A stretch of 64,000 nucleotides of DNA from a bacterium (GTDB lineage Bacteria; SAR324; NAC60-12): NCBI GenBank assembly GCA_965233585.1, contig CBDDTI010000747.1, forward strand, positions 1,009,513 through 1,073,512. Direction: 5' to 3'. Positions 43,930-64,000 of this stretch are shown here, in pieces. How positions within the stretch are numbered: the stretch's first letter is position 1; each line of letters starts with the position of its first letter. The notes under the pieces are model-generated. The model did no database searches. It saw only the letters and a list, made by a program, of their open reading frames with translations, and was not told the origin of the DNA. A program made the translations under genes and the position numbers.

Positions 43930-45912
43930 ATGTATCAAAACGAAAATGAGGGTGAACATGACTATTTATCTTTGTTTGGAAACATTGATATTGAGGAAGT
44001 AGTCAATCAAATTTCTAAATCTTCAAATCAAATCAATCAAATTTTAAGGAGCATGGATAGTCAGAAAAGACCAATTATTTTGAGTTCTCTAATGATTTGT
44101 CTTTTTGAAAAAGAAAATTTACAAAATGATTTTAAAAATCATTTTATGACATTTGCACCAGAGACTATTATCACAAATGTTCCTTTAACACTTGAAAAAG
44201 TTTTAAAGAAAGAGCAAATCCCCCAAGACAAAATTGACATACTCAAAAACCAATTTGATTATGCAATCAAAGATGATATAGATGTTCAGAAAAGTGATCT
44301 TTTAAAAGAAATTTTAAGAGAGCTAGAAGATCATGTCATTCCTCTATTTCAAACAAAGACAAATTATGACATTATTGGAAAGTTTTACGAAGAATTTTTA
44401 AAATATGCTGGTGTGACAAATGTTAAAAATGGCATTGTTTTAACTCCAAGACATATCACAGAATTTTTTACTGATTTAATTGAGATGAAATATAATGATG
44501 TCATTTTTGATCCTTGTTGTGGAACAGGTGCTTTTTTAGTTTCTGGAATGAATAGAATTTTAAACATCATTGAAAACTCTCATTTAACAAACAAACAAAA
44601 CCTTAAAAATCAAGTCAAGGAAAAGCAATTAATAGGTTTTGAAAAAAATCCTACTATGTTTGCCTTATCTATTTCTAATATGCTTTTTAGAGGTGATGGA
44701 AAGGCTCAAATTCACCATATAGATTTTTTTGATGAACAAACAAAAGCTGTTTTAGAAAATAAGAATCCTACAATCGGCTTCATCAACCCACCTTATGGGG
44801 GTCAAGACAATAAGAAAAACCCTACCAAGAAAGAGATTCAATTTTTAGCTAAACTTTTAGATCAATGTAGTCGCTATGTCATCATCATTGCACCACTTTC
44901 TACTTACTTCAAAGAAGACCATTTGAGAAACTCCATTTTAGCAAGACATACACTAAAAGCTGTGATAAATATGCCAAATGAATTATTTCAACCTAATGCT
45001 TCAACTCACACTGCCATTGCTGTTTTTGAAACTCATACTCCTCATTGTCAAAAAGAAGTTTTGTTTTATGACTTAAAAGATAATAGTTTTGTCCTATCCA
45101 AACAGAAAGGAAGAACTGATGTTCTAAACAAATGGAATACTCTCAAAAAATCTTTATTAAGAGAGATTAAAAACCCCAATCAGTACGTAGATGCTACCAG
45201 TTTTTTAAAAACTTCTATACAAGAAAATGATGAATGGATTATTCAATCACATTCAAAAACAGATTACTCACAGCTTAGTGAAAAGCATTTTTTAAACTCA
45301 ATAAGAGAATATGTTATTTTTAAAACTAAAAAGAATTTAAATTTATTAGACAAAGATTTGAATGAATTAGAATTTTTAGAAATTTTACAAAAAAATCATA
45401 TTGACAATCAATCTAAGTTAAAAAGAGAATTACCCAAAGAATTGAAATGTAAAGAATTTGATATTCAAGATGTATTCATTGTTAGAGGTTCAAAAAAAAG
45501 TTTTACACAACATCAAATCGTGACAGGAGAATACGCATATATCACAACCTCTAACAAAAACAATGGATTTTTTGGAACTTCTGATGTCTATACCGAAGAA
45601 GGAAATGTGATTACTTTTGACAGCGCAACTGATGGGAAGTGTTTCTATCAAGAACATGCTTTTGTCGGGTCTGACCATGTAGAAATTTTAGAACCTAAAA
45701 ACTTTGAATTAAATCAATATCTTGGTCTGTATTTCATTACCATACTAAACATGGAATTATTTAGATATTCTTTTGGCAGAAAAAGATCACAAAAAAGAAT
45801 GAAAAAAGATAAAATTTACTTGCCATACATCAAAGAAGGAAATGAAGACGTTCCAGACTTTTGTCGTATGGAAGAATACATCAAATGTTTGCCATACTCA
45901 CAACATCTTTAA
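43930..45912 (+). CDS. N6-adenine DNA methyltransferase fused to an HsdS-like target recognition domain
   Basis: GIVLTPRHI, DPCCGTGAFL motif I, INPPY motif IV; C-terminal YITTSNKNNG...FRYSFGRK TRD-like region. Confidence 0.85.
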   Translation: MYQNENEGEHDYLSLFGNIDIEEVVNQISKSSNQINQILRSMDSQKRPIILSSLMICLFEKENLQNDFKNHFMTFAPETIITNVPLTLEKVLKKEQIPQDKIDILKNQFDYAIKDDIDVQKSDLLKEILRELEDHVIPLFQTKTNYDIIGKFYEEFLKYAGVTNVKNGIVLTPRHITEFFTDLIEMKYNDVIFDPCCGTGAFLVSGMNRILNIIENSHLTNKQNLKNQVKEKQLIGFEKNPTMFALSISNMLFRGDGKAQIHHIDFFDEQTKAVLENKNPTIGFINPPYGGQDNKKNPTKKEIQFLAKLLDQCSRYVIIIAPLSTYFKEDHLRNSILARHTLKAVINMPNELFQPNASTHTAIAVFETHTPHCQKEVLFYDLKDNSFVLSKQKGRTDVLNKWNTLKKSLLREIKNPNQYVDATSFLKTSIQENDEWIIQSHSKTDYSQLSEKHFLNSIREYVIFKTKKNLNLLDKDLNELEFLEILQKNHIDNQSKLKRELPKELKCKEFDIQDVFIVRGSKKSFTQHQIVTGEYAYITTSNKNNGFFGTSDVYTEEGNVITFDSATDGKCFYQEHAFVGSDHVEILEPKNFELNQYLGLYFITILNMELFRYSFGRKRSQKRMKKDKIYLPYIKEGNEDVPDFCRMEEYIKCLPYSQHL

Positions 45913-49183: not shown

Positions 49184-50254
49184 ATGATTCCAAACCATAT
49201 CAGAAAATCAGAAGAAGACAAGGCAAGAATGCAAAAATTTCTGGACGGACTTCTTCAAGGTCGCTCTGACATACTGAACAAAGACCTTGCCAGTGCTTTT
49301 GATGTGGCAATCGCTATCTTGGAATCCGCCAATCAGACACATTTGTTAGCACTCATTGTCATCAGAAGATTCTGGTTTCAGTGTCTCAATGAATTTTTTG
49401 CAAAACATACTTTTGCAAGGAACATCTCTATTACGGCACAATTCATTGTCAATGGAAAGTATTTAGAAAAAACTTTGCCTCTTTTTCAACCTGCATCGCA
49501 AGTGTTCTATGTTCTCAAATCATTGCAAGAGGAGCATTTTGCAAGAGAACATGAATTTGTGATGACTGTACAAAAACGAATCAGAAGCAAATTGACTGAA
49601 TCAGAAAAGGCAAGACTTCTGGAACATGCCGTCTTTAAACCGCATGAAAGGACTTTGCACCTCACGGTGTATGATGGGGGTTTTGCACAGGCAGTGCGTC
49701 AAGACATGAGCATTTATTTAAGTCGGATCAATTCTGTCTTACCTCTTCGTTTACGTATAGACCATTTAGAATGCCAAATCGGCTCTATCCCCACCGTTCA
49801 ATCTGACCAAATCTGGCTTTCTCGTCTTTGTATTCGTTGGCAAGAAGTCGTTCAAACCCCTTTTTTGCTCACTTGTGTCCCTGCATTCATTGACAGAAAG
49901 TCTGACCAAACTGCCTCCTTAGTCATCTATACCCAAGAACTTTTAGATGATTTTCAGACCCTTTCAGGACAACTTTTAAAGCAGATTTTTGCGACATTCC
50001 CCCAACTTCAAAATGTATTTCACAAGGTGTGGTTTCTCCACAGACCTGCCATGAATGTTGCCCAAGAACAAAGACGTGTTCTGCTTTATGCAGAATCTAT
50101 CATCAATCCAAAAGCCTGCTATGAAAAACTACCTGCGGCATGGAAAAGGATTCAAAGAACTCCACCTAAACCCAAACCTTCAGAGCCAAAACTTTCTACC
50201 GAAGAGCAGATTCAAGCCGTTTTTGACAGAGTGTTGAATCGCAACAGTGCTTAG
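49184..50254 (+). CDS. Hypothetical protein, possibly with DUF721/DciA-like domain(s)
   Basis: TLHLTVYDGGFAQAV...YLSRIN pattern; its 3' end is duplicated at 61410..61683. Confidence 0.55.
   Translation: MIPNHIRKSEEDKARMQKFLDGLLQGRSDILNKDLASAFDVAIAILESANQTHLLALIVIRRFWFQCLNEFFAKHTFARNISITAQFIVNGKYLEKTLPLFQPASQVFYVLKSLQEEHFAREHEFVMTVQKRIRSKLTESEKARLLEHAVFKPHERTLHLTVYDGGFAQAVRQDMSIYLSRINSVLPLRLRIDHLECQIGSIPTVQSDQIWLSRLCIRWQEVVQTPFLLTCVPAFIDRKSDQTASLVIYTQELLDDFQTLSGQLLKQIFATFPQLQNVFHKVWFLHRPAMNVAQEQRRVLLYAESIINPKACYEKLPAAWKRIQRTPPKPKPSEPKLSTEEQIQAVFDRVLNRNSA
49978..50254. repeat. Left direct repeat of the island (~275 bp)
   Basis: Near-identical to 61410..61683 (one 3-bp indel and a few substitutions). 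Confidence 0.95.
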
Positions 50255-50325: not shown

Positions 50326-51186
50326 TTCTGATTTTAAACTTACAAGTGCCAACTTTTGCCATGTTCACGTTTTTGATGGGGGCGGTTCATTGAGTTGAGA
50401 AGGTGAGACTGGGATTGCCCATCAGCACAGGGTTTTGACGAGAAGCTCCTTTGTCTTTGGTGAGTCCAGAGACTTGTGCATAGACTCGTTTGTAGAGGTG
50501 GTCTACGTCTTGGGGTTCGGGTTGGAGCAGTTCTTGGATGACAAAGTAAGTGAATAAGCGATGCCCCTTTTCCCAATAGGCACTGGAGAACTGATTTTCT
50601 GTGCCTGCCGTCAAGATGACCATCTTCTCTTGGTCAAAGTTGACTTTTTTTGGGGTTTTCATCAGGGGCGCTTTGCCTTTGAAGACGAGCTTGCCGTCTG
50701 TTTTGCCTGTAAAGCAAGAATCTACAAAAGCAATGACTTTAGAGGCTTTGGTGTCTGTGAGTGCTTTGTAGAAGTGAGCCAGTTTAAATTCAGGGTAATC
50801 TTCAACGTAGTCTGGAATGCTGTCTGAAGGGAGGATGTAGGGTTCATCTTTGTTCTCGCCTAGTGGCACACCATGTCCATTGTAATAGAAATAGATGATG
50901 TCGCCTTCTTCCACTTCCTGTTTCAAGAATTTCATTTTGTCTGTGATGAGTCCTCTGGTGGCTTTGTCGTCAGTGAGTAAGATAGTCCTTCCTTCAGTGA
51001 CTCCTTGCTGTTTGACGATGGTTTCAGTGAAGAGTTCCGCAGAACGTTTGGCATAGATGATGTCATCAGCTTGCAGATACTTTTCAATGCCGATAGCAAA
51101 GACCCAAACTTTGGGGTTCTTGTCGGCTTTGGCAAGGTTTTGAAGTTTTGGCAGGAGGTCATCTTGGTATTTAGAGCCGTCTTTGT
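50326..51186. repeat. 861-bp duplication of the caspase domain plus 3' flank (copy of 54119..54979)
   Basis: Constant offset of 3793 bp; identical translation, no DNA differences seen by eye. Confidence 0.95.
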
Positions 51187-51277
51187 GTCTATAAAGAGTT
51201 TCCAATATCGGTGCTGTGCTGCCATATTTATTTTGAACATTGGGATTTGCTCCCCTGTCTAACAAGAATTCCACCAC
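50387..51277 (-). CDS. Caspase-family (peptidase C14) protein with a partial ankyrin N-terminus; may be a fragment
   Basis: FAIGIEKY, YFYYNGHG (His), FVDSCFTG (Cys); starts inside an ankyrin repeat. Confidence 0.75.
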   Translation of the reverse strand: MVEFLLDRGANPNVQNKYGSTAPILETLYRHKDGSKYQDDLLPKLQNLAKADKNPKVWVFAIGIEKYLQADDIIYAKRSAELFTETIVKQQGVTEGRTILLTDDKATRGLITDKMKFLKQEVEEGDIIYFYYNGHGVPLGENKDEPYILPSDSIPDYVEDYPEFKLAHFYKALTDTKASKVIAFVDSCFTGKTDGKLVFKGKAPLMKTPKKVNFDQEKMVILTAGTENQFSSAYWEKGHRLFTYFVIQELLQPEPQDVDHLYKRVYAQVSGLTKDKGASRQNPVLMGNPSLTFSTQ

Positions 51278-51318
51278 TTCCTTAACACCTGCTCTTTGCT
51301 GAAAAGACGGGTTCTTGA

Positions 51319-52758
51319 TTAGTTCAGAGCCATCTTGTTTTCCAACAACTCCACCACTTCCTTGTGTCCCCTCCGACTTGCCAACATCAGTGCTGTGCTG
51401 CCATATTCATTTTGAGCTTCTATCTTCGCTCCCCTGTCTAACAAGAACTCCACCACTTCCTTGTGTCCATTCAGACTTGCCAGAATCAGTGCTGTGTTAC
51501 CATATTCATTTTGAGCCTCTATCTTCGCTCCCCTGTCTAACAAGAACTCCACCACTTCCTTGTGTCCTTGCTGACTTGCCAACATCAGTGCTGTGTCACC
51601 AGATTTATTTTGAGCCTCTATCTTTGCTCCCCTGTCTAACAAGAACTCCACCACTTCCTTGTGTCCTTGCTGACTTGCCAACATCAGTGCTGTTTCACCA
51701 TATTCATCTTGAGCCTCTATCTTTGCTCCCCTGTCTAACAAAGACTTGACCTTGTTCAGATTTCCCTGTTCACTTGCTTTTAGGAGTGTTTGATCATGGG
51801 CGTTTGCTGCTATCTTGTTTTCCAACAACTCCACCACTTCCTTGTGTCCATAAAAACTTGCCCAAATCAGTGCTGTGTTACCAGATTTATCTTGAGCCTC
51901 CATGTTCGCTCCCCTGTCTAACAAGAACTCCACCACTTCCTTGTGTCCCTTCCGACTTGCCCAAATCAGTGCTGTGTTACCATATTCATTTTGAGCCTCT
52001 ATCTTTGCTCCCCTGTCTAACAAGAACTCCACCACTTCCTTGTGTCCCTTCCGACTTGCCCAAATCAGTGCTGTGTTACCATATTCATTTTGAGCCTCTA
52101 TCTTTGCTCCCCTGTCTAACAAGAACTCCACCACTTCCTTGTGTCCATAAAAACTTGCCAACATCAGTGCTGTGTCACCATCTTCATTTTGAGCCTCTAT
52201 CTTTGCTCCCCTGTCTAACAAAGACTTGACCTTGTTCAGATTTCCCTGTTCACTTGCTTTTAGGAGTGTTTGATCATGGGCGTTTGCTGCTATCTTGTTT
52301 TCCAACAACTCCACCACTTCCTTGTGTCCATTCCGACTTGCCCAAATCAGTGCTGTGTTACCATATTCATCTTGAGCCTCTATCTTTGCTCCCCTGTCTA
52401 ACAAGAACTCCACCACTTCCTTGTGTCCATAAAAACTTGCCAACATCAGTGCTGTGTCACCATCTTCATCTTGAGCCTCTATCTTCGCTCCCCTGTCTAA
52501 CAAGAACTCCACCACTTCCTTGTGTCCCTTCCGACTTGCCAACATCAGTGCTGTGTTACCATATTCATTTTGAGCCTCTATCTTCGCTCCCCTGTCTAAC
52601 AAAGACTTGACCTTGTTCAGATTTCCCTGTTCACTTGCTTTTAGGAGTGTTTGATCATGGGCGTTTGCTGCTAGAAATGCTTGAGAACAAGCTATCAAGA
52701 CAGATAAAAAAAGGAGGGATAAGAAAGGAGAGAAGACTTTTGATAAAGTTTTCATCAT
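51319..52758 (-). CDS. Ankyrin-repeat lipoprotein A (3 cap+repeat modules: 3, 4 and 4 repeats)
   Basis: Lipobox-like LIAC; 33-aa/99-bp repeats AQxxxGxTALxxASxxGHKEVVExLLDRGAKIE. Confidence 0.92.
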   Translation of the reverse strand: MMKTLSKVFSPFLSLLFLSVLIACSQAFLAANAHDQTLLKASEQGNLNKVKSLLDRGAKIEAQNEYGNTALMLASRKGHKEVVEFLLDRGAKIEAQDEDGDTALMLASFYGHKEVVEFLLDRGAKIEAQDEYGNTALIWASRNGHKEVVELLENKIAANAHDQTLLKASEQGNLNKVKSLLDRGAKIEAQNEDGDTALMLASFYGHKEVVEFLLDRGAKIEAQNEYGNTALIWASRKGHKEVVEFLLDRGAKIEAQNEYGNTALIWASRKGHKEVVEFLLDRGANMEAQDKSGNTALIWASFYGHKEVVELLENKIAANAHDQTLLKASEQGNLNKVKSLLDRGAKIEAQDEYGETALMLASQQGHKEVVEFLLDRGAKIEAQNKSGDTALMLASQQGHKEVVEFLLDRGAKIEAQNEYGNTALILASLNGHKEVVEFLLDRGAKIEAQNEYGSTALMLASRRGHKEVVELLENKMALN

Positions 52759-52944
52759 GATTTCTTTGGAAAAAGATTAAATCAAAAACAAAGAGACTGA
52801 ATAACATTGGAGACGTGAGTTCTTTTTGCTGAAGCAAGAGTCAGCCCAACCGAATGAGGAGAGTGTAAGCGAACGTCAGCAAAGGTTTGTCTTGACAAGG
52901 TGTCTTTGTCTGAGATGGTCTGGAGTTTGTTTTGAGAAGTTTGT

Positions 52945-54072
52945 TTAAGGTTGAATGCGATAAGTGGTAATTTGGTGGTCGTACTGGTCTAATAATTCCA
53001 AGACATTGAGCAGTTGGTCATTTCCTTTGATGAGAGTCTCTGAAATTTCTTGAAGCTTCAGTTGGAGTTCAGTTGGAGTTTGGAGCAAGATGAGCATTTC
53101 TTTCAAATTGATATTGCTGGTCGCTTCTCCCAAAGAAACTATCAAGTCATCTTCTTCTTTTTCAGGATAAACAAAATCCTGTTCTTCGTAGCGATTTTGA
53201 AAGATAAATCCAACATTGCCCTGATAATCCACAGAAAGTAAAGTGAAGTACATGGGCTGTTGGGTTCGGATACGAACTGTCATTTTGTCTCCATCTCTAA
53301 AAAAAGATGAATTGGTCTCAAAACTTTCAGATTGGTTGGCATCAAACAAATCACTGACTGAAGGCAATCGTAGATCAGTCTCGCCACAGGACAACATGTA
53401 GTATTGATTGTCACGATCAAAAGTCAGTTCCATTGGGAAATTCAAATCTTGAAGTTCTGGGTTCTTTTGCAAGAACACCCCTTTCGGTTTGTTGCCATTG
53501 AGGCACTTGGGGTCTTGACTGAATCTCCGACTCAATCGTTTAAAAAATGGGCTTTTGTCATAGACCAGAACAATTTGATGGTATCCATCGGGAAGTTTTT
53601 GAGCAGCCACTTGACGGAAGTCTCCAAAGAGTTGAGCCTTGGATTTGGTTCCATCTTGCTGGATGATTTCAATCTCGCATTGCATCACCTCTGATTCTTT
53701 GGCGTTACAATTTTCTTGACGTTGACTGATACTCTGCACCTGCACGCCGTTGACAGCTGCTGCAATTTGAACAATGGCATCCTTTCTTGCTTCTTGCCAA
53801 TCATCTCCCAGACCACAGGCAAACACTTCATAAGGTTTAACAGCCACTTCACATGGTAGAGTTTGAAGTGGCTGGGAAGTAGGAGTTTTTGTCTTTGGCT
53901 GCTTGGTTTCAGGCGGAGAGGTTTGTTTGACCTTTTTCAGAACTTCCTGTTTGCTTACCCCGCTGAATGTTGTTGATAGATCAGGAGGTGTTGCCGTTTG
54001 TTGAGAACAAGCATGGAGAACGAAGGACACAGCAACTGCTGAAAGCACAGTGATTTTTTGAATAGTCGTCAT
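52945..54072 (-). CDS. Lipoprotein with LPP20-like N-domain and DUF4384-like C-domain
   Basis: Lipobox LHAC; EARKDAIVQIA helix; FRDGDKMTVRIRTQQPMYFTLLSVDYQGNV..IF. Confidence 0.7.
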   Translation of the reverse strand: MTTIQKITVLSAVAVSFVLHACSQQTATPPDLSTTFSGVSKQEVLKKVKQTSPPETKQPKTKTPTSQPLQTLPCEVAVKPYEVFACGLGDDWQEARKDAIVQIAAAVNGVQVQSISQRQENCNAKESEVMQCEIEIIQQDGTKSKAQLFGDFRQVAAQKLPDGYHQIVLVYDKSPFFKRLSRRFSQDPKCLNGNKPKGVFLQKNPELQDLNFPMELTFDRDNQYYMLSCGETDLRLPSVSDLFDANQSESFETNSSFFRDGDKMTVRIRTQQPMYFTLLSVDYQGNVGFIFQNRYEEQDFVYPEKEEDDLIVSLGEATSNINLKEMLILLQTPTELQLKLQEISETLIKGNDQLLNVLELLDQYDHQITTYRIQP

Positions 54073-54179
54073 CTTGATTGAAAGATGAAACACAGATTCA
54101 CACAAAACATCACATCGTTTCTGATTTTAAACTTACAAGTGCCAACTTTTGCCATGTTCACGTTTTTGATGGGGGCGGT

Positions 54180-57074
54180 TCATTGAGTTGAGAAGGTGAG
54201 ACTGGGATTGCCCATCAGCACAGGGTTTTGACGAGAAGCTCCTTTGTCTTTGGTGAGTCCAGAGACTTGTGCATAGACTCGTTTGTAGAGGTGGTCTACG
54301 TCTTGGGGTTCGGGTTGGAGCAGTTCTTGGATGACAAAGTAAGTGAATAAGCGATGCCCCTTTTCCCAATAGGCACTGGAGAACTGATTTTCTGTGCCTG
54401 CCGTCAAGATGACCATCTTCTCTTGGTCAAAGTTGACTTTTTTTGGGGTTTTCATCAGGGGCGCTTTGCCTTTGAAGACGAGCTTGCCGTCTGTTTTGCC
54501 TGTAAAGCAAGAATCTACAAAAGCAATGACTTTAGAGGCTTTGGTGTCTGTGAGTGCTTTGTAGAAGTGAGCCAGTTTAAATTCAGGGTAATCTTCAACG
54601 TAGTCTGGAATGCTGTCTGAAGGGAGGATGTAGGGTTCATCTTTGTTCTCGCCTAGTGGCACACCATGTCCATTGTAATAGAAATAGATGATGTCGCCTT
54701 CTTCCACTTCCTGTTTCAAGAATTTCATTTTGTCTGTGATGAGTCCTCTGGTGGCTTTGTCGTCAGTGAGTAAGATAGTCCTTCCTTCAGTGACTCCTTG
54801 CTGTTTGACGATGGTTTCAGTGAAGAGTTCCGCAGAACGTTTGGCATAGATGATGTCATCAGCTTGCAGATACTTTTCAATGCCGATAGCAAAGACCCAA
54901 ACTTTGGGGTTCTTGTCGGCTTTGGCAAGGTTTTGAAGTTTTGGCAGGAGGTCATCTTGGTATTTAGAGCCGTCTTTGTAGAAGATTTGATCTACAAGGT
55001 CCACTTTCAGATTGGGATTTTGCAAGGTGAGTTCAGGTAGGTTTTGAATGGTTTCTTGACCTCCCACTGCAGCGACTAAAGCATTGGTTTGTTGATGGGT
55101 TTCATCAGTAGCTTGGGCTTGGAACTGCTGGTCTTGATACTGCAACTTGACTTGTTTGAGTTGCAGGCTGTTGTCATCTGCGATGGCAAATTGTGCCTTC
55201 ACTTTGAAACGTTGAGGGTCTTGGAACAAGGTTTTTCTCAAAGACAGAGAGAGTCCAGAGACTTTAAGAGGTTGTTGATAATCAGATTGAGTGCTTTGGA
55301 GCGTGACAAACATGTCTCCTGTGTCTTTGTTCATTGTGGGTTGCTGTATCTGGAGAGAGGCGATGACATCGTTGGTTGCTTTGGCGACAATGGCTTTCGT
55401 TGGCAAGGCATCAAGATCTTTTTGGTAGGTTTGATAGGCTTTTTTGAGTTTGGTATTGCGGTCTTCTACTAGCTGACGATAGGCCTCTTGGATTTTATCT
55501 ACTTTTGCTTGTCTTTGAGCAGTGATTTGTCGGACACGTGCTTCAAACTCTGTGTTGGTCTCCCATTCGTCTTGTTTCAGTTGTATGGCTTCAGGGACTT
55601 GAGGTTTGGGAATCTGATAGTCTGCGACACGTTGATAGACACTTTTGAGCTTGTTGTGTTGGGATTGGATCAAGCGATTAGCATAAGTGGTGATGGACTC
55701 TAGGGCAGGGGTCTGTTTATTGTGCTTCCAGTCTGAAGTCTGCGATGACAACGACTTCACTGGAAACATCTTGAACGCACTTGTCACCCAAAACACCTGC
55801 TCTTTGCTGAAAAGATGGATTCTTGCTTCATTCAAAGCAATCTCCAACAACTCCACCACTTCCTCGTGATGCCTACTTGATTGACTTGCCAGAATCAGTG
55901 CTGTGTCACCAGCTTCATTTTGAACATTGGGATTCGCTCCCCTGTCTAACAACAACTCCACTACCTCCTTCTGTACTTCCTCACTTGCTATCATCAGCGC
56001 TGTGTTACCATATTCATTTTGAGCCTCTATCTTCGCTCCCCTGTCTAACAAGAACTCCACTACTTCCTTGTGTCCTTGCCGACTTGCCAACATCAGTGCT
56101 GTGTCACCATCTTTATTTTGAGCTTCTACATCAGCTCCGTTTTTTAATAAACTTTTAGCAATTTCTAGTTTTTGATGGCGAATCGCCCAGATAAAAATCG
56201 GTTCATGATTGGCTTTTACTTTGGGATTGGCTCCGTTTGCAAGAAGTGAATTGACTGTTTGCAAATATCCCCTTTTACTTGCTACTACTAAAGCGGTTTC
56301 TCCATGACGATTTTCACTTTCTAAATTGACATCATAGCGAATAAGTTTTTGAACTGCTTTAAAATGTTCCCTTTGAACCAATAGAATGAGCAAGGGATTT
56401 CCATCGTTATCTTGTATTCCTAGTTTGAATTTTGCCCCAAAATCTTCAACAGCAACCATCCATAATGGTTCATGGTCTAGTTGCCTCAAATATCTCAAGG
56501 CTCTTACAGGATTACGATTCACAATCGGTTCAATTTCAAAATCATAATAATCTTGAGCCACTTGATACCACCGAAAGCGACCAGTCACGGATTCATCATG
56601 GTAATAATTTGTGAAAATTTGCAATTTTTCTTCAGTGGTCAACTGATAAGAAGAAAAAGGATCAAGACTTGTTTTCAGAAGAATAAAACGAGTCAGCGTA
56701 TCAAGCACTGGAAAACCAACAAGTTTATATTCTCCAGTCGCTACTTTGAGCCTCAAGTTAGCTGTTCCGTCAATTGAAATCAGTGCATAGTGCTCATTTA
56801 TAGTCCCAAAATAAGGTAGACCCAAAAATGCACTGAGTTGGTAGTAAGTTGAGACACCGCCACTGCCAACCCACCCTCCACTTTCAACTGAATTAGGAGA
56901 GATAGAAATGTCGTTTTTATCCAAGAAGTTAGCAGGAAGGGGTCTGGCTTCAGCAGGCGGATCAGGGATTTCTATTTCGGCTTTCCAAAATCCGATACAG
57001 CTTTGCAACGTTAAGGTCACAACAACCATTAGAAGAACATGGCAGCAAGAAAACAAAGTATTGAAAGATTTCAT
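54180..57074 (-). CDS. Lipoprotein: N-domain, ankyrin repeats, coiled coil, caspase (peptidase C14)
   Basis: Lipobox LQSC; about 6 ankyrin repeats; DEWETNTEFEAR helical segment; NGHG and DSC dyad. Confidence 0.88.
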   Translation of the reverse strand: MKSFNTLFSCCHVLLMVVVTLTLQSCIGFWKAEIEIPDPPAEARPLPANFLDKNDISISPNSVESGGWVGSGGVSTYYQLSAFLGLPYFGTINEHYALISIDGTANLRLKVATGEYKLVGFPVLDTLTRFILLKTSLDPFSSYQLTTEEKLQIFTNYYHDESVTGRFRWYQVAQDYYDFEIEPIVNRNPVRALRYLRQLDHEPLWMVAVEDFGAKFKLGIQDNDGNPLLILLVQREHFKAVQKLIRYDVNLESENRHGETALVVASKRGYLQTVNSLLANGANPKVKANHEPIFIWAIRHQKLEIAKSLLKNGADVEAQNKDGDTALMLASRQGHKEVVEFLLDRGAKIEAQNEYGNTALMIASEEVQKEVVELLLDRGANPNVQNEAGDTALILASQSSRHHEEVVELLEIALNEARIHLFSKEQVFWVTSAFKMFPVKSLSSQTSDWKHNKQTPALESITTYANRLIQSQHNKLKSVYQRVADYQIPKPQVPEAIQLKQDEWETNTEFEARVRQITAQRQAKVDKIQEAYRQLVEDRNTKLKKAYQTYQKDLDALPTKAIVAKATNDVIASLQIQQPTMNKDTGDMFVTLQSTQSDYQQPLKVSGLSLSLRKTLFQDPQRFKVKAQFAIADDNSLQLKQVKLQYQDQQFQAQATDETHQQTNALVAAVGGQETIQNLPELTLQNPNLKVDLVDQIFYKDGSKYQDDLLPKLQNLAKADKNPKVWVFAIGIEKYLQADDIIYAKRSAELFTETIVKQQGVTEGRTILLTDDKATRGLITDKMKFLKQEVEEGDIIYFYYNGHGVPLGENKDEPYILPSDSIPDYVEDYPEFKLAHFYKALTDTKASKVIAFVDSCFTGKTDGKLVFKGKAPLMKTPKKVNFDQEKMVILTAGTENQFSSAYWEKGHRLFTYFVIQELLQPEPQDVDHLYKRVYAQVSGLTKDKGASRQNPVLMGNPSLTFSTQ

Positions 57075-57150
57075 CGTGAATTTTTTGGGAAAAAGATTAA
57101 ATCAAAAACAAAGAGACTCAACAAGAGATTGAATCACAGAAAAAAGCGAT

Positions 57151-57179
57151 AGTCTAATACTAGATAAGAGTGCTGTCAA
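57151..57179 (-). promoter_or_regulatory. Sigma70-like promoter for the ankyrin-caspase gene
   Basis: TTGACA-17 bp-TAGACT on the minus strand. Confidence 0.65.
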
Positions 57180-57354
57180 GTTTTTTTGCAAATTCAAATG
57201 ACTGGCTTGCTTGGAGACGTGAGTTCTTTTTGCTGAAGCAAGAGTCAGTCTGACTGAATGAGTGGAAAGCTTGCAAAAGTGATCCAGAAACAAATTGACT
57301 GAATCAGAAAAGCAAAGGAAACACCTGCTCTTTGCTGAAAAGACGGGTTCTTGA

Positions 57355-59007
57355 TTAGTTCAGAGCCATCTTGTTTTCCAACAACTCCACCACTTCCTTG
57401 TGTCCCCTCCGACTTGCCAACATCAGTGCTGTGCTGCCATATTCATTTTGAGCTTCTATCTTCGCTCCCCTGTCTAACAAGAACTCCACCACTTCCTTGT
57501 GTCCATTCAGACTTGCCAGAATCAGTGCTGTGTTACCATATTCATTTTGAGCCTCTATCTTCGCTCCCCTGTCTAACAAGAACTCCACCACTTCCTTGTG
57601 TCCTTGCTGACTTGCCAACATCAGTGCTGTTTCACCATATTCATCTTGAGCCTCTATCTTCGCTCCCCTGTCTAACAAGAACTCCACCACTTCCTTGTGT
57701 CCTTGCTGACTTGCCAACATCAGTGCTGTTTCACCATATTCATCTTGAGCCTCTATCTTCGCTCCCCTGTCTAACAAGAACTCCACCACTTCCTTGTGTC
57801 CTTGCTGACTTGCCAACATCAGTGCTGTTTCACCAGATTTATTTTGAGCCTCTATCTTTGCTCCCCTGTCTAACAAGAACTCCACCACTTCCTTGTGTCC
57901 CTTCCGACTTGCCAACATCAGTGCTGTGTTACCATATTCATTTTGAGCCTCTATCTTCGCTCCCCTGTCTAACAAAGACTTGACCTTGTTCAGATTTCCC
58001 TGTTCACTTGCTTTTAGGAGTGTTTGATCATGGGCGTTTGCTGCTATCTTGTTTTCCAACAACTCCACCACTTCCTTGTGTCCATTCAGACTTGCCAACA
58101 TCAGTGCTGTGTTACCATATTTATCTTGAGCCTCTATCTTTGCTCCCCTGTCTAACAACAACTCCACCACTTCCTTGTGTCCTTGCTGACTTGCCCAAAT
58201 CAGTTCTGTGTCACCAGATTTATTTTGAGCCTCTATCTTTGCTCCCCTGTCTAACAAGAACTCCACCACTTCCTTGTGTCCCTTCCGACTTGCCAACATC
58301 AGTGCTGTGTCACCATCTTCATCTTGAGCCTCTATCTTCGCTCCCCTGTCTAACAACAACTCCACCACTTCCTTGTGTCCCTTCCGACTTGCCAACATCA
58401 GTGCTGTGTCACCAGATTTATTTTGAGCCTCTATCTTTGCTCCCCTGTCTAACAACAACTCCACCACTTCCTTGTGTCCCTTCCGACTTGCCCAAATCAG
58501 TGCTGTGTCACCACCTTCATCTTGAGCCTCTATCTTCGCTCCCCTGTCTAACAACAACTCCACCACTTCCTTGTGTCCATAAAAACTTGCCAACATCAGT
58601 GCTGTGTTACCATATTCATTTTGAGCCTCTATCTTCGCTCCCCTGTCTAACAACAACTCCACCACTTCCTTGTGTCCATTCCGACTTGCCCAAATCAGTT
58701 CTGTGTTACCATATTCATTTTGAGCCTCTATCTTCGCTCCCCTGTCTAACAACAACTCCACCACTTCCTTGTGTCCCTTCCGACTTGCCAACATCAGTGC
58801 TGTGTTACCATATTCATCTTGAGCCTCTATCTTTGCTCCCCTGTCTAACAAAGACTTGACCTTGTTCAGATTTCCCTGTTCACTTGCTTTTAGGAGTGTT
58901 TGATCATGGGCGTTTGCTGCTAGAAATGCTTGAGAACAAGCTATCAAGACAGATAAAAAAAGGAGGGATAAGAAAGGAGAGAAGACTTTTGATAAAGTTT
59001 TCATCAT
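57355..59007 (-). CDS. Ankyrin-repeat lipoprotein B (2 cap+repeat modules: 8 and 6 repeats)
   Basis: Same signal peptide, cap and C-terminus as 51319..52758, with a different repeat order. Confidence 0.92.
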   Translation of the reverse strand: MMKTLSKVFSPFLSLLFLSVLIACSQAFLAANAHDQTLLKASEQGNLNKVKSLLDRGAKIEAQDEYGNTALMLASRKGHKEVVELLLDRGAKIEAQNEYGNTELIWASRNGHKEVVELLLDRGAKIEAQNEYGNTALMLASFYGHKEVVELLLDRGAKIEAQDEGGDTALIWASRKGHKEVVELLLDRGAKIEAQNKSGDTALMLASRKGHKEVVELLLDRGAKIEAQDEDGDTALMLASRKGHKEVVEFLLDRGAKIEAQNKSGDTELIWASQQGHKEVVELLLDRGAKIEAQDKYGNTALMLASLNGHKEVVELLENKIAANAHDQTLLKASEQGNLNKVKSLLDRGAKIEAQNEYGNTALMLASRKGHKEVVEFLLDRGAKIEAQNKSGETALMLASQQGHKEVVEFLLDRGAKIEAQDEYGETALMLASQQGHKEVVEFLLDRGAKIEAQDEYGETALMLASQQGHKEVVEFLLDRGAKIEAQNEYGNTALILASLNGHKEVVEFLLDRGAKIEAQNEYGSTALMLASRRGHKEVVELLENKMALN

Positions 59008-59068: not shown

Positions 59069-59097
59069 AGCCTAATACTAGATAAGAGTGCTGTCAA
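59069..59097 (-). promoter_or_regulatory. Sigma70-like promoter for ankyrin lipoprotein B (paralogous to 57151..57179)
   Basis: TTGACA-17 bp-TAGGCT with an identical spacer. Confidence 0.6.
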
Positions 59098-59372: not shown

Positions 59373-59966
59373 ATGAAAACTATTCAAAAAATTGCTGTTT
59401 TTTCAGCAGCTACCATGTCCTTTGCCCTCCATGCTTGTTCTCAACAAACAGCTCCTGCCCCTGCTCCTGCTGAGGCAATCAATCCAGAACCCGAATGGAT
59501 CTCAAACGTGCCTGATGACAGCGATGGTAAGAAGTTTTTTATTGGACAATCTAGCATTCGTGCCAATCGGCAAAGTGCGCGTAACGATGCTAGAGCCAAT
59601 GCCAGAGTACAGATGGTAGAAGAAATGGGGGCTCTTGTGAAAAGCAAGCTGGAGGAAGCGAAGCAGTCTTTTGGCAGATCCAGCGAGGTCATTGACCCTA
59701 TCACAGCGACACGTCAATTTCAGCAGCAATTTTCTGCTGGTCAAGTGAGGGGTTCTAAAGTTCAAAAATACTACGATACTCAGGAGGAAGGCTCTAGAGG
59801 AAAAAAAGGTTGGGTCTCTCATGTGTTGGTGAGTGTTCCTGTAGATTCTTTGAATGCCGCCTTTCAAGAGCTTTCTGAACAAAAGTATGAGCAAGCCATG
59901 AAAGACGAACAAGCAAATGCAGCAGAGTTCTGGGGTAATTTGAAGAAGCAAGGGTTTATAGAATAA
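59373..59966 (+). CDS. LPP20-like lipoprotein
   Basis: Lipobox LHAC; PEWI; FFIGQS; ARNDARANARVQM. Confidence 0.75.
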   Translation: MKTIQKIAVFSAATMSFALHACSQQTAPAPAPAEAINPEPEWISNVPDDSDGKKFFIGQSSIRANRQSARNDARANARVQMVEEMGALVKSKLEEAKQSFGRSSEVIDPITATRQFQQQFSAGQVRGSKVQKYYDTQEEGSRGKKGWVSHVLVSVPVDSLNAAFQELSEQKYEQAMKDEQANAAEFWGNLKKQGFIE

Positions 59967-59990: not shown

Positions 59991-61310
59991 GTGGGGAAGG
60001 ATGTTTGGGTTTTCACCTTTGGGAATCACCGAATTCTTGACTTTCCAATGGGGATTCCCTTCCCCAGGTCCCAAAAATGGCTCTTTACGTTTGCACTGTT
60101 GTATATCTGCTTTATGGTCCTTTTGCGTCTGAACCTCCTCTGTCAATTTAAAGTCTTGAAGGTCATAGTGGTCAGGTGTTGTACTGGCTTGTATTTATTG
60201 GTTGGAGGCTGTAGTCAATCCTATCCTCTCATAGAACCAAGCCTGTCTGAAAAGCCGGACTGGATCCATCATCCACCCGAACAGCAAAACATCTCTCATC
60301 TTGTAGGAATCTCAGATGAGTTTCACTCACAAGAAAGCGAAGCCAGACTTCAAGCCAGAAACCATGCCACAATAGAGTTTTTGCAAGAATGCGGGCTTTC
60401 TGTGAAGTATGGCGTAGAAGAATATGGATTTTCTTCAGGGTCACGTTCAGAGGTGATTGATGAAAGGCTGAAGGCTTATGAAGAAAGGTTTCTACATACT
60501 GAGGGAGTGGTTCAAAGGCTTAAACATGAGGCAAGCTATACTGAAAAAAAGACAGAGCAACCAAACAAAACTCTTCCCATCAAGGTTACATACAAAGTTT
60601 GGAGACTCTTTAGCATCTCAAAAGATGAATGCGATAGAATTGAAGAAGAAACCCGTACCAAACATCAGGCAATCAGAGACAACTTGAACCAGATGGTAGC
60701 CAACGCACAACAGCTGGCAGCTGAGGGAAACCTCCATGATGCTCTTAAAAAATTCAAAGAGTTAGAACTGGAGGTTCAAAAGTTCAAGTGGCTGGATGTC
60801 ACCTCCATCAGGAATGAGGCTGGTCAATTAGAAAGCACTTGGTTGAATAGCTTTTCCCTAAAAGTGAAGCCAGAAAAACAAATTTTAACTCTCAACCAAC
60901 ATCTTAAAGCCTTTCAGATTCAGGTTTTTTTTCAAACTAATACTCAGACTAGCCCCACTCCTGCAACCTCTTTTCCTCTCAAAATCAAGATGTTACAGGG
61001 GAGTTGGAGACCTATTGCCTCAACATTGAGTGACCAGCAAGGAATTTCAAAATTTGATCTTAACCAAACTGTCGGGCAACCCATCTCTTTCAAAGCACCT
61101 ACGACCTTGAGTCTCATCATTCAGCCTAATATTGCAAACAGCAACATCAGTAGCTATGCAAAACAGACTTTGCTCCAGAAACAAGTCTCCCACCAAATCA
61201 TTGTTCAAAAACATTTTTCTCCTGAACCTTTTCTTGACAGTGCAACAGGCGTCCATTTGAACCTGAACTCTCACAAAGCTCTTTTCAACAAGGACAGTCA
61301 GTTCAAGTGA
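59991..61310 (+). CDS. LPP20-like lipoprotein (true start probably ~60150-60170; C-terminus possibly truncated)
   Basis: LLVGGC lipobox, KPDWI, LVGIS, EARLQARNHA. Confidence 0.65.
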   Translation: MGKDVWVFTFGNHRILDFPMGIPFPRSQKWLFTFALLYICFMVLLRLNLLCQFKVLKVIVVRCCTGLYLLVGGCSQSYPLIEPSLSEKPDWIHHPPEQQNISHLVGISDEFHSQESEARLQARNHATIEFLQECGLSVKYGVEEYGFSSGSRSEVIDERLKAYEERFLHTEGVVQRLKHEASYTEKKTEQPNKTLPIKVTYKVWRLFSISKDECDRIEEETRTKHQAIRDNLNQMVANAQQLAAEGNLHDALKKFKELELEVQKFKWLDVTSIRNEAGQLESTWLNSFSLKVKPEKQILTLNQHLKAFQIQVFFQTNTQTSPTPATSFPLKIKMLQGSWRPIASTLSDQQGISKFDLNQTVGQPISFKAPTTLSLIIQPNIANSNISSYAKQTLLQKQVSHQIIVQKHFSPEPFLDSATGVHLNLNSHKALFNKDSQFK

Positions 61311-61409: not shown

Positions 61410-61683
61410 AAAGCAGATTTTTGCGACATTCCCCCAACTTCAAAATGTATTTCACAAGGTGTGGTTTCTCCACAGACCTGCCATGAATGTTGCCCAAGAA
61501 CAAAGACGTGTTCTGCTTTATGCAGAATCTATCAATCCAAAAGCCTGCTATGAAAAGCTACCTGCAGCATGGAAAAGGATTCAAAGAACCCCGCCTAAAC
61601 CCAAATCTTCAGAGCCAAAACTTTCTACTGATGAGCAGATTCAAGCCGTTTTTGACAGAGTGTTGAATCGCAACAGTGCTTAG
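61410..61683. repeat. Right direct repeat of the island; duplicated 3' end of gene 49184..50254
   Basis: Translates to KQIFATFPQL...VLNRNSA*, matching the left copy. Confidence 0.95.
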
Positions 61684-63568
61684 CAGTCAAGAACTCTAAT
61701 GCTTTTTGGAGTTGAATGTCTTGACCTTGTTGAATGCTTTCAATGGTGTCATCAATCCAAATATCTGGAAGAACACCCTGACCTTCATAAAGCTCGCCTG
61801 TCTTTTGAAACGAGGCGATTCTTGAGGCTTTAAAAACGTAGCCAGAATTTGGGAGTTTAAAAACATTGGCAAAACCACTGCCCCCAGAACTTGCAACCCC
61901 TATCAATTTGACGCAAGGTAACCCTTTGAATGCCCCTAAAAAAATGTCAGTCGCACTAAAATTACGTTCATTCATCAAAATCACCAATGGTGCGTCATAC
62001 CTTTTATCAACGTTTGGACTCACGACTGTCAAATGCAACTTTGAAAACTCTCCTTTTGGCAAATCCCATTTCAAAGCATGAGTTGCCAACCATTCGTCTA
62101 TGGCTTGACGTTCGTCTATCTTCCAAATTTTAGACTTTCTGGGGTGTAAAAAACGACTTTGCAATCCGTAGCTTTCATTCACATTGGGGTCTTTATCTGC
62201 ATCTATTCGCAATGCGGCAATGTTGATGACTTGAGGTTGATTGAGAAAATAAGCAAGCAACTTCAAAGTAGGTTGACGGCTTCCACCTCCATTGTCTCTT
62301 ACATCAATAATAAGTCCTTTTGTGCTTTGAAAAGATGACATGGCTTCATCTAATTTCTCCAAAAATTCATTACTCTTACCCATCTTGGACATCTTCAAAT
62401 ACCCGATATTCTGAGACATCACTTGGTAAGAAATAGAATCTTCAGAATGATTGCCAGATAAATTGTCAGATAAATCATTATTTTTGTCAAATATAGTTGT
62501 TTTTTCTTCCTTCTTTGCATTTGTAAAAACCACTTGGATTTGGTCTTGAACGATACCTTGTTCTCTACGTGTGATTTGCAAAAATGGAGGAATCCAACGA
62601 GTAACAGATTTTCTTAACCCTTTAGAACCTTTGGCTCTGTAAAATCCTGTTTGTTGCTGAAGTTTTTGGACAGAAAGCCCATCAATGGATTTTAAGAAAG
62701 GAAAATCAGAATGATAGAATTTTCTTGTTGAAGACAACGCAACAACCTTTCCTCCTATTTCCTTAAGGTCAAAAGGAAGTGAAACACGGGGAATGTCTAT
62801 GTTTTTTTGCAAAAAACGATAACTTAAAGTTGTATGTCCATCTCCAAAAAGTGCCAGAAACTTCCTAACCTGAAGCCCAAAGTCTCCCTTATGGATTCCT
62901 GCCCCTAAACTATTTCTTATCGTATCCAATGCGTTTTGATAGTCCACATGACGCAACTTGAGATAAGCAAAATGATTGACTAAATTGGTTTCTAACGTAT
63001 CAAGGTCTTCTTTGGATTGCTTGGCAGAAAGCCAAACGTCCTGATTTTCCAATTCTTCAGAAGTAGGGAAGCCATAGAGTCTAGTTGTCAGGTGTGCAAA
63101 ACGGGGGTCACTTAAAGTGCTGTGAGGTCTTGAAACTTGTCTTGCTTGTCTTAAGTGATTCAGTAAAATTTGTTTTTTATCCAAAGTACTGTGAAGTTTG
63201 ACAACCTGATTATCTTGGAGGTCTTTCAATGTGAGTTCTACATCAAAAAAATTATATTTTCCAAACAAACTTATGACAGCAGTGGTGTCTCCAATTATTC
63301 TTTTTTTCCAATAAAATCCGTAAGTGTCTTTTGAAACTTGCTTGATCTCTTCCAAACCAACTCCTTCTATTTCTAGGAGTTGATACCAACGTCCTTGAAG
63401 TTTCACATGCAGTGCATCATGCTTTGTCCATCTGATATTTTCAAATGGGCTTTTATCGCCAATTCCGTCCAGATGATACAAACTTTGACACGCTACAAAA
63501 AAGAAAGGCGTCACGATAAAAACCAGAGACTTCCAAATGGAATGTCCCCATCTTGTGTTGCTCTTCAT
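61625..63568 (-). CDS. S41-family (tail-specific) protease, putative lipoprotein
   Basis: FFVAC lipobox; IGYLKM, LIIDVRDNGGG, NFSATDIF, GVLPDI. Confidence 0.88.
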   Translation of the reverse strand: MKSNTRWGHSIWKSLVFIVTPFFFVACQSLYHLDGIGDKSPFENIRWTKHDALHVKLQGRWYQLLEIEGVGLEEIKQVSKDTYGFYWKKRIIGDTTAVISLFGKYNFFDVELTLKDLQDNQVVKLHSTLDKKQILLNHLRQARQVSRPHSTLSDPRFAHLTTRLYGFPTSEELENQDVWLSAKQSKEDLDTLETNLVNHFAYLKLRHVDYQNALDTIRNSLGAGIHKGDFGLQVRKFLALFGDGHTTLSYRFLQKNIDIPRVSLPFDLKEIGGKVVALSSTRKFYHSDFPFLKSIDGLSVQKLQQQTGFYRAKGSKGLRKSVTRWIPPFLQITRREQGIVQDQIQVVFTNAKKEEKTTIFDKNNDLSDNLSGNHSEDSISYQVMSQNIGYLKMSKMGKSNEFLEKLDEAMSSFQSTKGLIIDVRDNGGGSRQPTLKLLAYFLNQPQVINIAALRIDADKDPNVNESYGLQSRFLHPRKSKIWKIDERQAIDEWLATHALKWDLPKGEFSKLHLTVVSPNVDKRYDAPLVILMNERNFSATDIFLGAFKGLPCVKLIGVASSGGSGFANVFKLPNSGYVFKASRIASFQKTGELYEGQGVLPDIWIDDTIESIQQGQDIQLQKALEFLTAKHCCDSTLCQKRLESAHQ

Positions 63569-63780
63569 TTCATTTCCAAAAAATTGAATCTATCAAAAAT
63601 GTTCAGTCTATCACAAATGCAAAAACCACTGTCAAACAAAGTCAGGGTTTAGTAGCCTTTTCATCTGACGACAAAATAGATAGAATGTTCCTTTTTCAAA
63701 TCAAATTTTTGGTATTGTTAAACTATAAGTGATATGCGATATTAAGTTCATTTAATTGAATTGATAGTCATGGTGTAGCA

Positions 63781-64000
63781 ATGAAGTCGTGTCCTAGATG
63801 TGAAAGTGAGAAGACGGTTAAGAATGGTTTCTTATATGGTAAACCGAGGAGGCGTTGCAATGCCTGCAACTATCAATATACCAAGTCCTATCGTGGTCAA
63901 ATCTCACCACAGATCAAAAGAAGAGCATTAGAGTTGTATTTGGAGGGTCTTGGTTTCAGGTCAATCGGTCGTTTGCTGAATTGTTCTCATGTTTCAGTTT
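63781..64000 (+). mobile_element. IS1-family transposase, N-terminal part (runs off the window)
   Basis: MKSCPRCES..TVKNG...RRCNACNYQY zinc ribbon followed by ALELYLEGLGFRSIGRLL HTH. Confidence 0.85.

What the first reader, a model, noticed from the sequence alone, without database searches (positions are those of the whole stretch)
51319..59007. Natural DARPin-like library: repeat variation concentrated at binding positions and reshuffled combinatorially
The 25 internal repeats of genes A and B share an almost invariant DNA scaffold; the only frequent silent change seen is GCA/GCG. They vary at AQ[N/D][E/K][Y/D/S/G]G[N/D/E/S]T.L[ML/IW/IL]AS[RK/RN/FY/QQ/LN/RR]GH, largely the beta-turn and helix-1 positions randomised in designed ankyrin binders. 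A small set of multi-base alleles (e.g. TTTTAT, CAGCAA, CTGAAT, ATTTGG) recurs in different combinations. That points to sub-repeat recombination or gene conversion plus diversifying selection, not random point mutation.
Basis: partly seen in the sequence, partly recalled or inferred. Interest (0 to 1): 0.8.

Follow-up and report, generated by a model that had tools for sequence, protein, structure and literature searches.

The report
Reshuffling ankyrin binder lipoproteins in SAR324
An uncultured marine bacterium carries two predicted lipoprotein genes built from 25 almost identical ankyrin repeats that differ mainly on the predicted binding face and have swapped pieces with one another, likely a fast-evolving set of binding proteins of a kind already described for fungal immune receptors.

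Summary
Genes A (51319-52758) and B (57355-59007) hold 25 in-frame 99-bp ankyrin units (92% mean DNA identity, 20 distinct). Five of the six DARPin library positions vary, and amino-acid change there exceeds silent change (14 vs 6 steps, p about 0.01). The units do not fit a tree (47 of 131 site pairs show four gametes). A and B have identical ends and caps but differently ordered arrays. Assembly chimerism is unlikely, though repeat order was not checked against reads.

Variation at these positions is the default in any ankyrin array (86 control arrays). The diagnostic part is the silent-site homogeneity. The library is tiny, and no dedicated mutator, template or recombinase was found. Best reading: concerted evolution by ordinary recombination plus diversifying selection, as published for fungal NLR ankyrin repeats.

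New here: capped multi-module lipoproteins split off an ankyrin-caspase gene cassette, and the same signature in LRR and Kelch arrays of this SAR324-like genome. The scan noted similar ankyrin arrays in two other genomes, and propeller families in this one.

The parts
51319..52758 (-). Gene A, 479 aa: signal peptide with lipobox LIAC, then three capped ankyrin modules (N-cap + 3, 4 and 4 units)
   Evidence: AlphaFold mean pLDDT 92.3, pTM 0.52, modules joined by continuous helices
57355..59007 (-). Gene B, 550 aa: same leader and caps as A, two modules (N-cap + 8 and 6 units)
52603..52686 (-). First N-cap of A; its last 70 nt are identical in all five caps (also 52222-52305, 51742-51825, 58852-58935, 57976-58059)
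54180..57074 (-). Gene C, 964 aa: predicted lipoprotein, ankyrin domain whose last three repeats share the A/B DNA scaffold (55854-56150), helical linker, caspase-like C14 domain with HG and DSC motifs
51283..51318 (-). 36-nt tail after A's stop, identical to B's (57319-57354) and homologous to the coding linker behind C's ankyrin domain: A and B look like truncated ankyrin-caspase genes
51180..51283 (-). Single ankyrin-repeat remnant, in frame with the downstream caspase copy
50326..51186 (-). 861-bp exact duplicate of the 3' end of gene C (54119-54979); ORF 50387-51277 is a leaderless caspase-like domain
   Evidence: one contig at about 2x depth in two runs
52945..54105 (-). Gene D, DUF4384 lipoprotein
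59373..59966 (+). LPP20-like lipoprotein (E 0.0044, below Pfam cut-off); leader 76-82% like gene D's
59991..61310 (+). Second divergent gene, probable lipoprotein, no convincing family
57151..57179 (-). Sigma-70-like promoter match upstream of C (10 of 12); a homologous copy lies upstream of B (59069-59097) and is deleted upstream of A
49978..50254 (+). Left copy of a 277-bp direct repeat (96%; right copy 61410-61683) bracketing the 11.2-kb cassette

Best explanation
Genes A and B encode predicted lipid-anchored ankyrin binding proteins whose near-identical repeats have recombined with one another, likely through ordinary unequal crossing-over and gene conversion that keep the scaffold uniform while selection likely preserves amino-acid variants on the binding face. 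Shown: the repeat anatomy, the mosaic alleles, identical gene ends around differently ordered arrays, and the excess of amino-acid change at the binding positions. Inferred: point mutations create new binding residues; recombination among 28 tandem units within 8 kb erases most neutral variants and deals the selected ones into new combinations, repeat numbers and module layouts. Each layout would give a different binding surface. A and B probably derive from an ankyrin-caspase gene of a secreted LPP20/DUF4384 lipoprotein cassette by a stop in the linker. The most likely ligands are variable proteins of the animal host or of other microbes outside the cell; no ligand is known.
For: Mosaicism: 47 of 131 pairs four-gamete incompatible, Rm 6; CI 0.46. 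Speed: no difference between A and B over 222 nt at the 5' end, 312 nt at the 3' end and the shared part of five caps, yet arrays of 3+4+4 vs 8+6 units. Selection: 14 amino-acid-changing steps over 15.2 sites in six a-priori codons vs 6 silent steps over 21 sites, binomial p 0.011 (steps counted by hand, summing to the script's minimum of 27). Diversity ratio 4.3, rough neutral simulation p 0.006. Structure: variable positions 1-5 in the beta-turn and 7-14 in helix 1 (DSSP), in register with the positions that differ among repeats of DARPin D12 in 5LEB. Same signature in this genome's Kelch array (0 silent steps over 23 sites in invariant codons, 26.5 changing steps, p 0.01-0.05) and LRR array (0 over 11.7, 15 changing steps in 5 codons). 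Lineage-specific: 29 of 29 fetched ankyrin loci of other SAR324-group genomes have 42-51% mean internal identity. RecA present. Precedent: PMC4986451 section 17.
Against: The selection tests rest on about 20 mutational steps from one genome. Whole-unit pN/pS is only 1.28, and the LRR whole-unit test is not significant (p 0.22). Five SBBP-type and three Kelch-type arrays in the genome show ratios below 1 over the whole unit. Recurrent mutation can mimic recombination between sites 3 nt apart. No allele or length difference between individuals was seen; the arrays are unresolved in the short-read contigs. MutS and MutL are present, so nothing explains an unusually high recombination rate. Lipoprotein status rests on a lipobox motif read by eye. 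Host identity comes from earlier AI notes.
Confidence: 0.7

Rival explanations
1. Recent amplification with relaxed constraint and no positive selection: a few repeats were copied and recombined, purifying selection kept the scaffold, and the tolerant surface positions simply drifted.
For: These positions are the most variable in ankyrin arrays generally. Whole-unit pN/pS 1.28. Small numbers. Persi et al. (PMC5120217, passages) report fast evolution among young repeats under relaxed or positive selection.
Against: Neutral surface codons should be no more diverse than silent sites, yet they are about 4-5 times more diverse (0.278 vs 0.052-0.065). The Kelch array shows 0 silent steps over 23 sites in invariant codons.
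Confidence: 0.14
2. A and B act partly as a reservoir of binding repeats for the ankyrin sensor of the caspase-like protease C, or can fuse to the downstream caspase copy, so the shuffling retargets a secreted protease.
For: C's repeats share the DNA scaffold (89-90 of 99 nt in the A/B pool for two repeats) and carry new combinations of pool alleles. A/B tails match C's linker, and an in-register ankyrin remnant precedes the caspase copy. A lacks the promoter copy. Relatives fuse multi-module ankyrin arrays to the caspase (P0001, P0002, P0005). The N-terminal domain is swapped across the family: Lcl_C, WD40, ankyrin, Sel1, S41.
Against: C's repeats carry private silent and amino-acid changes, so they are not kept homogeneous. 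A and B are intact, with leaders. No fusion joint was reported in the laid contigs (table 5).
Confidence: 0.09
3. Artefact: an assembler stitched reads of near-identical repeats, or of several strains, into chimeric arrays.
For: No listed short-read piece spans an array. The genome bin is mixed: 711 of 747 contigs have low ORF density. The window lies at a contig end.
Against: 30 of the 47 incompatible pairs lie within 30 nt (counted), and the longest invariant stretch is 23 nt, too short for overlap chimeras. Runs hold 0.74-0.88 of sampled 31-mers with no other letters. Frames are intact, and the contig is 1.07 Mb.
Confidence: 0.04
4. A dedicated diversifier (diversity-generating retroelement, shufflon or silent-cassette system) writes the variants.
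For: Variation is tightly focused on a few codons. One reverse transcriptase lies on a large bacterial contig (C746).
Against: No template or silent copy: all 29 BLAST matches of the unit are in this locus. That RT lies on another contig among restriction-modification-like genes. 9 of 23 variable sites have no adenine allele. No recombinase among 13 neighbouring ORFs.
Confidence: 0.03

Closest known systems
High-internal-conservation (HIC) ANK, TPR and WD40 repeats of fungal NLRs (Dyrka et al. 2014, PMC4986451, passages and section 17 read; Ament-Velasquez and Saupe 2026, PMC13449251, passages and section 12 read)
   Same: Near-identical repeats; hypervariable, positively selected positions on the inner helix and beta-hairpin; repeat shuffling within and between genes. 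HIC repeats also occur outside fungi, including in bacteria and in 5.59% of repeat proteins without an ATPase domain.
   Different: No NACHT/NB-ARC domain; predicted exported lipoproteins rather than cytoplasmic receptors; capped multi-module layout; the linked effector is a caspase-like domain in a neighbouring gene; no RIP-type mutation source.
Wolbachia ankyrin genes (Siozios et al. 2013, PMC3563639, passages read)
   Same: Bacterial ankyrin genes with repeat-number change, chimeric repeats and recombination at short direct repeats.
   Different: The term 'positive selection' has 0 occurrences in that text; the passages describe short identical stretches flanking deletions, not a whole homogenised scaffold with variation confined to the binding face.
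Designed ankyrin repeat proteins and rigid DARPin-DARPin-DARPin fusions (PDB 5LEB, 5LEC, 5LE2)
   Same: Best sequence hit and top five fold hits for gene A; N-cap plus internal repeats, three domains joined by shared helices; 5 of 6 library positions vary.
   Different: Natural; 2-6 alleles per site; position 33 is fixed while 1, 7, 9, 10 and 22 also vary; no separate C-cap sequence; module orientation uncertain (pTM 0.52, TM-scores about 0.4).
Ankyrin-type eukaryotic-like proteins of sponge and coral symbionts (Wu et al. 2026, PMC13747020, abstract and opening read)
   Same: Ankyrin proteins in a probably host-associated marine bacterium; such proteins can let bacteria escape phagocytosis.
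   Different: No function tested here; repeat-level diversification was not seen in what I read.
Uncharacterised caspase-like (C14) proteins with swappable N-terminal domains beside LPP20/DUF4384 lipoproteins (Campylobacterota, Spirochaetaceae, Shewanella, Photobacterium)
   Same: Gene C is a member (up to 49% identity over the linker plus caspase region); LPP20 or DUF4384 neighbours in 9 of 20 loci examined.
   Different: None of 109 fetched loci of relatives had a homogenised ankyrin array (strict motif scan).

Membership tests
Ankyrin repeat proteins | 33-residue beta-turn/helix/helix repeats | tested here: met
   Pfam Ank far above cut-off; model pLDDT 92
HIC repeat arrays (fungal NLR type) | High internal identity (85% over 100 aa in Dyrka; Psim 0.7 or more in Ament-Velasquez) | tested here: inconclusive
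   Mean pairwise identity 0.83-0.84 in amino acids and 0.92 in DNA: above 0.7, near 0.85; T-REKS itself not run
HIC repeat arrays (fungal NLR type) | Diversifying selection at concave-face positions | tested here: met
   p 0.011 and 0.006; moderate, one genome
HIC repeat arrays (fungal NLR type) | Repeat exchange within and between genes | tested here: met
   four-gamete test, Rm 6, A1=B9 and other twins; CI 0.46
HIC repeat arrays (fungal NLR type) | Repeat-number polymorphism among individuals | not testable with these tools
   only short-read contigs of 2 samples, arrays unresolved; no close strain in metagenome contigs or 40 relatives
NLR/STAND receptors | NACHT or NB-ARC ATPase domain | tested here: not met
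   none in A, B, C or neighbours
Diversity-generating retroelement | Template repeat plus adjacent reverse transcriptase | tested here: not met
Diversity-generating retroelement | Variation restricted to template adenines | tested here: not met
   9 of 23 variable sites lack an A allele and many adenines are invariant; no template to compare
Shufflon / site-specific inversion | Recombinase gene and inverted crossover sites | tested here: not met
   no recombinase in 13 ORFs; units are direct repeats
Silent-cassette antigenic variation | Promoterless donor copies and one expression site | tested here: inconclusive
   no copies elsewhere; A lacks the promoter copy but is full length and could be read through from D
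Bacterial lipoprotein | Signal peptide with lipobox cysteine | tested here: inconclusive
   LIAC after a hydrophobic stretch read from the sequence; no predictor available
Peptidase C14 (gene C and copy) | His-Cys dyad in a caspase fold | tested here: met
   Pfam C14 E 1e-11 for the identical copy; NGHG and DSC(F) conserved in 8 aligned relatives; activity untested

The most novel reading that the evidence does not exclude
A host-associated bacterium runs an ongoing, antibody-like repertoire: recombination within the population keeps generating multi-specific, shared-helix ankyrin binders (with parallel Kelch and LRR repertoires) that track variable host or rival proteins, and the ankyrin pool also retargets a secreted caspase-like protease.
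Probability: 0.12. Interest if true: 0.8.

Novelty: new variant of a known kind. Interest (0 to 1): 0.45.

Why it matters
It extends the repeat-shuffling-plus-selection regime of fungal immune receptors to exported, non-NLR bacterial proteins. It gives a compact, testable case of how symbiont ankyrin proteins could change specificity quickly. The 20 natural repeat variants are ready reagents for finding what such proteins bind in an animal host, an open question for eukaryote-like proteins of sponge and coral bacteria. The three-domain shared-helix layout parallels an engineered DARPin format. Without a ligand or population data it remains a good example of a known evolutionary pattern, not a new mechanism.

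Tried and rejected
Close strains: an exact scaffold pattern found 0 stretches in metagenome contigs; DNA of the cassette matched 0 of 40 relatives; gene C's C-terminal part alone found no genome contig, though an alignment then found 35 and 69 loci. No RNA holder listed; this is no evidence on expression. Cluster membership and accessions of the closest relatives could not be looked up, and a closer laying of contigs on gene B could not be made, so per-repeat read support and the DNA of P0001, P0002 and P0005 stay unchecked. DGR, shufflon and loss of mismatch repair: rejected. Phase-variation tracts, suggested by earlier notes on other lipoproteins: only 7-base A/T runs near A, B and C; not supported. 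My first control extraction was too strict (12 arrays) and was redone with a profile (88 arrays including A and B); the 33-residue profile missed five of eight other ankyrin genes of this genome that were tried, so they were not scored. The remnant row was out of register and is not used. Linkage did not decay with distance (rho -0.04, p 0.66): uninformative. No complex prediction was run, since no binding partner is claimed. Literature searches listed no paper on homogenised, binding-face-variable ankyrin lipoproteins in bacteria or on the caspase-LPP20-DUF4384 cassette; the library is open-access only and supplements were not read.
Full report
Setting. The window is the last 64 kb of a 1.07-Mb contig. 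The 12-Mb bin is mixed: five large contigs of about 2.9 Mb have bacterial coding density, and 711 of 747 contigs do not. The nearest named relatives of a housekeeping gene in the window include SAR324 cluster bacteria at 42-47% identity. That the host is a coral comes from earlier AI notes; I did not test it.

The observation. Genes A and B contain 11 and 14 units of exactly 99 bp, in frame and without indels. Mean pairwise DNA identity is 0.92; 20 of 25 units are distinct, with 23 variable sites. Additional variation occurs at DARPin positions 22 (F/L) and 7 (A/E). Units are grouped into capped modules, 3+4+4 in A and 8+6 in B, behind five N-caps identical over their last 70 nt. The AlphaFold model of A (pLDDT 92, pTM 0.52) puts positions 1-5 in the beta-turn and 7-14 in helix 1, and joins modules by continuous helices. 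Its best sequence and fold matches are engineered triple-DARPin rigid fusions. The numbering of DARPin library positions (2, 3, 5, 13, 14, 33) is recalled; three papers read in passages say only that they lie on the concave surface, and the alignment to 5LEB shows its repeats differing at these positions. Five of the six vary here.

Is the positional match surprising? Not by itself. Among 86 control arrays drawn from the 120 best ankyrin hits, the same positions are among the most variable at every level of internal identity, and the concentration rises with identity; one control array equals A and B. What is unusual is the DNA homogeneity: 29 of 29 fetched ankyrin loci from other genomes of the phylum have 42-51% mean internal identity.

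Recombination. 47 of 131 informative site pairs show all four gametes, with at least six crossovers in 81 bp. The best tree found needs 59 steps where 27 would suffice. A and B are identical over 222 nt at the start and 312 nt at the end, yet differ in repeat number and order, so array rearrangement outpaces point mutation unless the ends are being converted. Shuffling is incomplete: 20 haplotypes against about 25 under independence. Most alleles are single-base neighbours, so mutation supplies them and recombination redistributes them.

Selection. The six library codons carry 14 amino-acid-changing steps over 15.2 sites, against 6 silent steps over 21 sites in the whole unit (p 0.011) and 7 changing steps over 62.8 sites elsewhere. 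Diversity is 0.278 against 0.065, with p 0.006 in a rough neutral simulation. This is moderate evidence from few events; whole-unit pN/pS is 1.28.

Artefact check. Four runs from two samples of one study hold 74-88% of sampled words. Their contigs match the unique spacers with no other letters, and in two runs the 861-bp caspase duplication has about double depth. No listed piece spans an array, so repeat order is unverified. Thirty of the 47 incompatible pairs lie within 30 nt, and the longest invariant stretch is 23 nt, which overlap chimeras would not produce.

Surroundings. On the minus strand the order is B, C (ankyrin plus caspase-like domain), D (DUF4384 lipoprotein), A, and a leaderless exact copy of C's caspase domain preceded by one ankyrin remnant; two further probable lipoprotein genes diverge from B. 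A 277-bp direct repeat brackets the 11.2-kb block. C's repeats share the A/B scaffold and alleles but keep private changes. The non-coding tails of A and B match C's coding linker, and unnamed relatives fuse multi-module ankyrin arrays to the same caspase domain, so A and B most likely arose from such a gene by truncation and duplication. Across the family the N-terminal domain is interchangeable, and LPP20 or DUF4384 neighbours appear in 9 of 20 loci (90 of 145 neighbouring ORFs scanned). A lacks the promoter-like segment found before B and C.

No dedicated machine. All 29 matches of the unit in the genome lie in this locus. Of 113 reverse transcriptase matches, one lies on the five large bacterial contigs, far away. 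RecA, MutS and MutL are present.

A genome-wide habit. An LRR gene (C747:553817-555145) has 15 units with 16 of 21 codons fully invariant and 15 changing steps in five codons. A Kelch lipoprotein (C746:485812-488226) has 10 units with no silent step in 35 invariant codons and 26.5 changing steps. Of 17 arrays listed in a systematic scan, these two, gene B and one short 11-residue repeat have whole-unit ratios above 1; the older propeller arrays are below 1. Earlier notes of this scan describe those families and similar ankyrin arrays in two other genomes; they are unchecked and not independent support.

Comparison with what is known. Dyrka et al. [quoted passage not shown] Ament-Velasquez and Saupe 2026 (PMC13449251) show repeat exchange between genes and such repeats in bacteria. 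Wolbachia ankyrin genes recombine and change repeat number (PMC3563639). Chlamydial repeat families were reported not to evolve in concert (PMC4209131; passages). A and B work like the fungal arrays but are not NLRs. My searches listed no description of this regime in bacterial ankyrin lipoproteins.

Verdict. Real, and probably adaptive: a new variant of a known kind, interest 0.45. Shown: anatomy, mosaicism, excess change at the binding face. Inferred: mechanism, export, host ligand. Untested: ongoing variation in populations and any link to protease targeting.

Noticed in passing
G000 C747:553817-555145 (-): LRR gene with 15 units of 63 bp; 16 of 21 codons invariant in DNA, variation in five codons around the LxC motif, reshuffled (16 of 25 pairs four-gamete).
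   Followed up: partly
G000 C746:485812-488226 (-): Kelch lipoprotein with 10 scored units of 141 bp, no silent change in 35 invariant codons, hypervariable loop codons, Rm 6.
   Followed up: partly
G000 C745-C747, many loci: Numerous 141-bp and 171-bp propeller repeat genes, most with a lipobox-like motif, 81-89% internal identity.
   Followed up: partly
window 49978-50254 and 61410-61683: 277-bp direct repeat (3' end of an unannotated 368-aa gene) bracketing the cassette; suggests integration, or possible excision or amplification.
   Followed up: partly
window 63691-64000: Start of a multicopy element at the contig end, more than 30 near-identical matches on the bacterial contigs; probably an insertion sequence.
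   Followed up: no
G000 C745:87794-90657 and 391545-404661: Two long CRISPR-like arrays (period about 62); the repeat resembles the Cas12a type (recalled, not tested).
   Followed up: no
G000 C746:293879-295444: 521-aa reverse transcriptase among restriction-modification-like genes; possibly a defence RT.
   Followed up: no
G000 C747:766797-771622: Four tandem genes with 34-residue ankyrin repeats, more diverged than A and B.
   Followed up: no
L013-L116 and P0001-P0068: Widespread uncharacterised family: helical linker plus caspase-like domain with interchangeable N-terminal domains (Lcl_C, WD40, ankyrin, Sel1, S41/PDZ, rotamase), often beside LPP20/DUF4384 lipoproteins.
   Followed up: partly
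P0120, P0172, P0099: Ankyrin arrays of a sponge-type family (P0172 is Amphimedon) with the same recurring, reshuffled binding-face alleles at protein level.
   Followed up: no
window 43930-45912: Low-GC N6-methyltransferase fused to a type I specificity domain.
   Followed up: no
window 61625-63568 (-): S41 peptidase beside the cassette; S41 domains are fused to the caspase-like domain in three Sulfurimonas loci.
   Followed up: no
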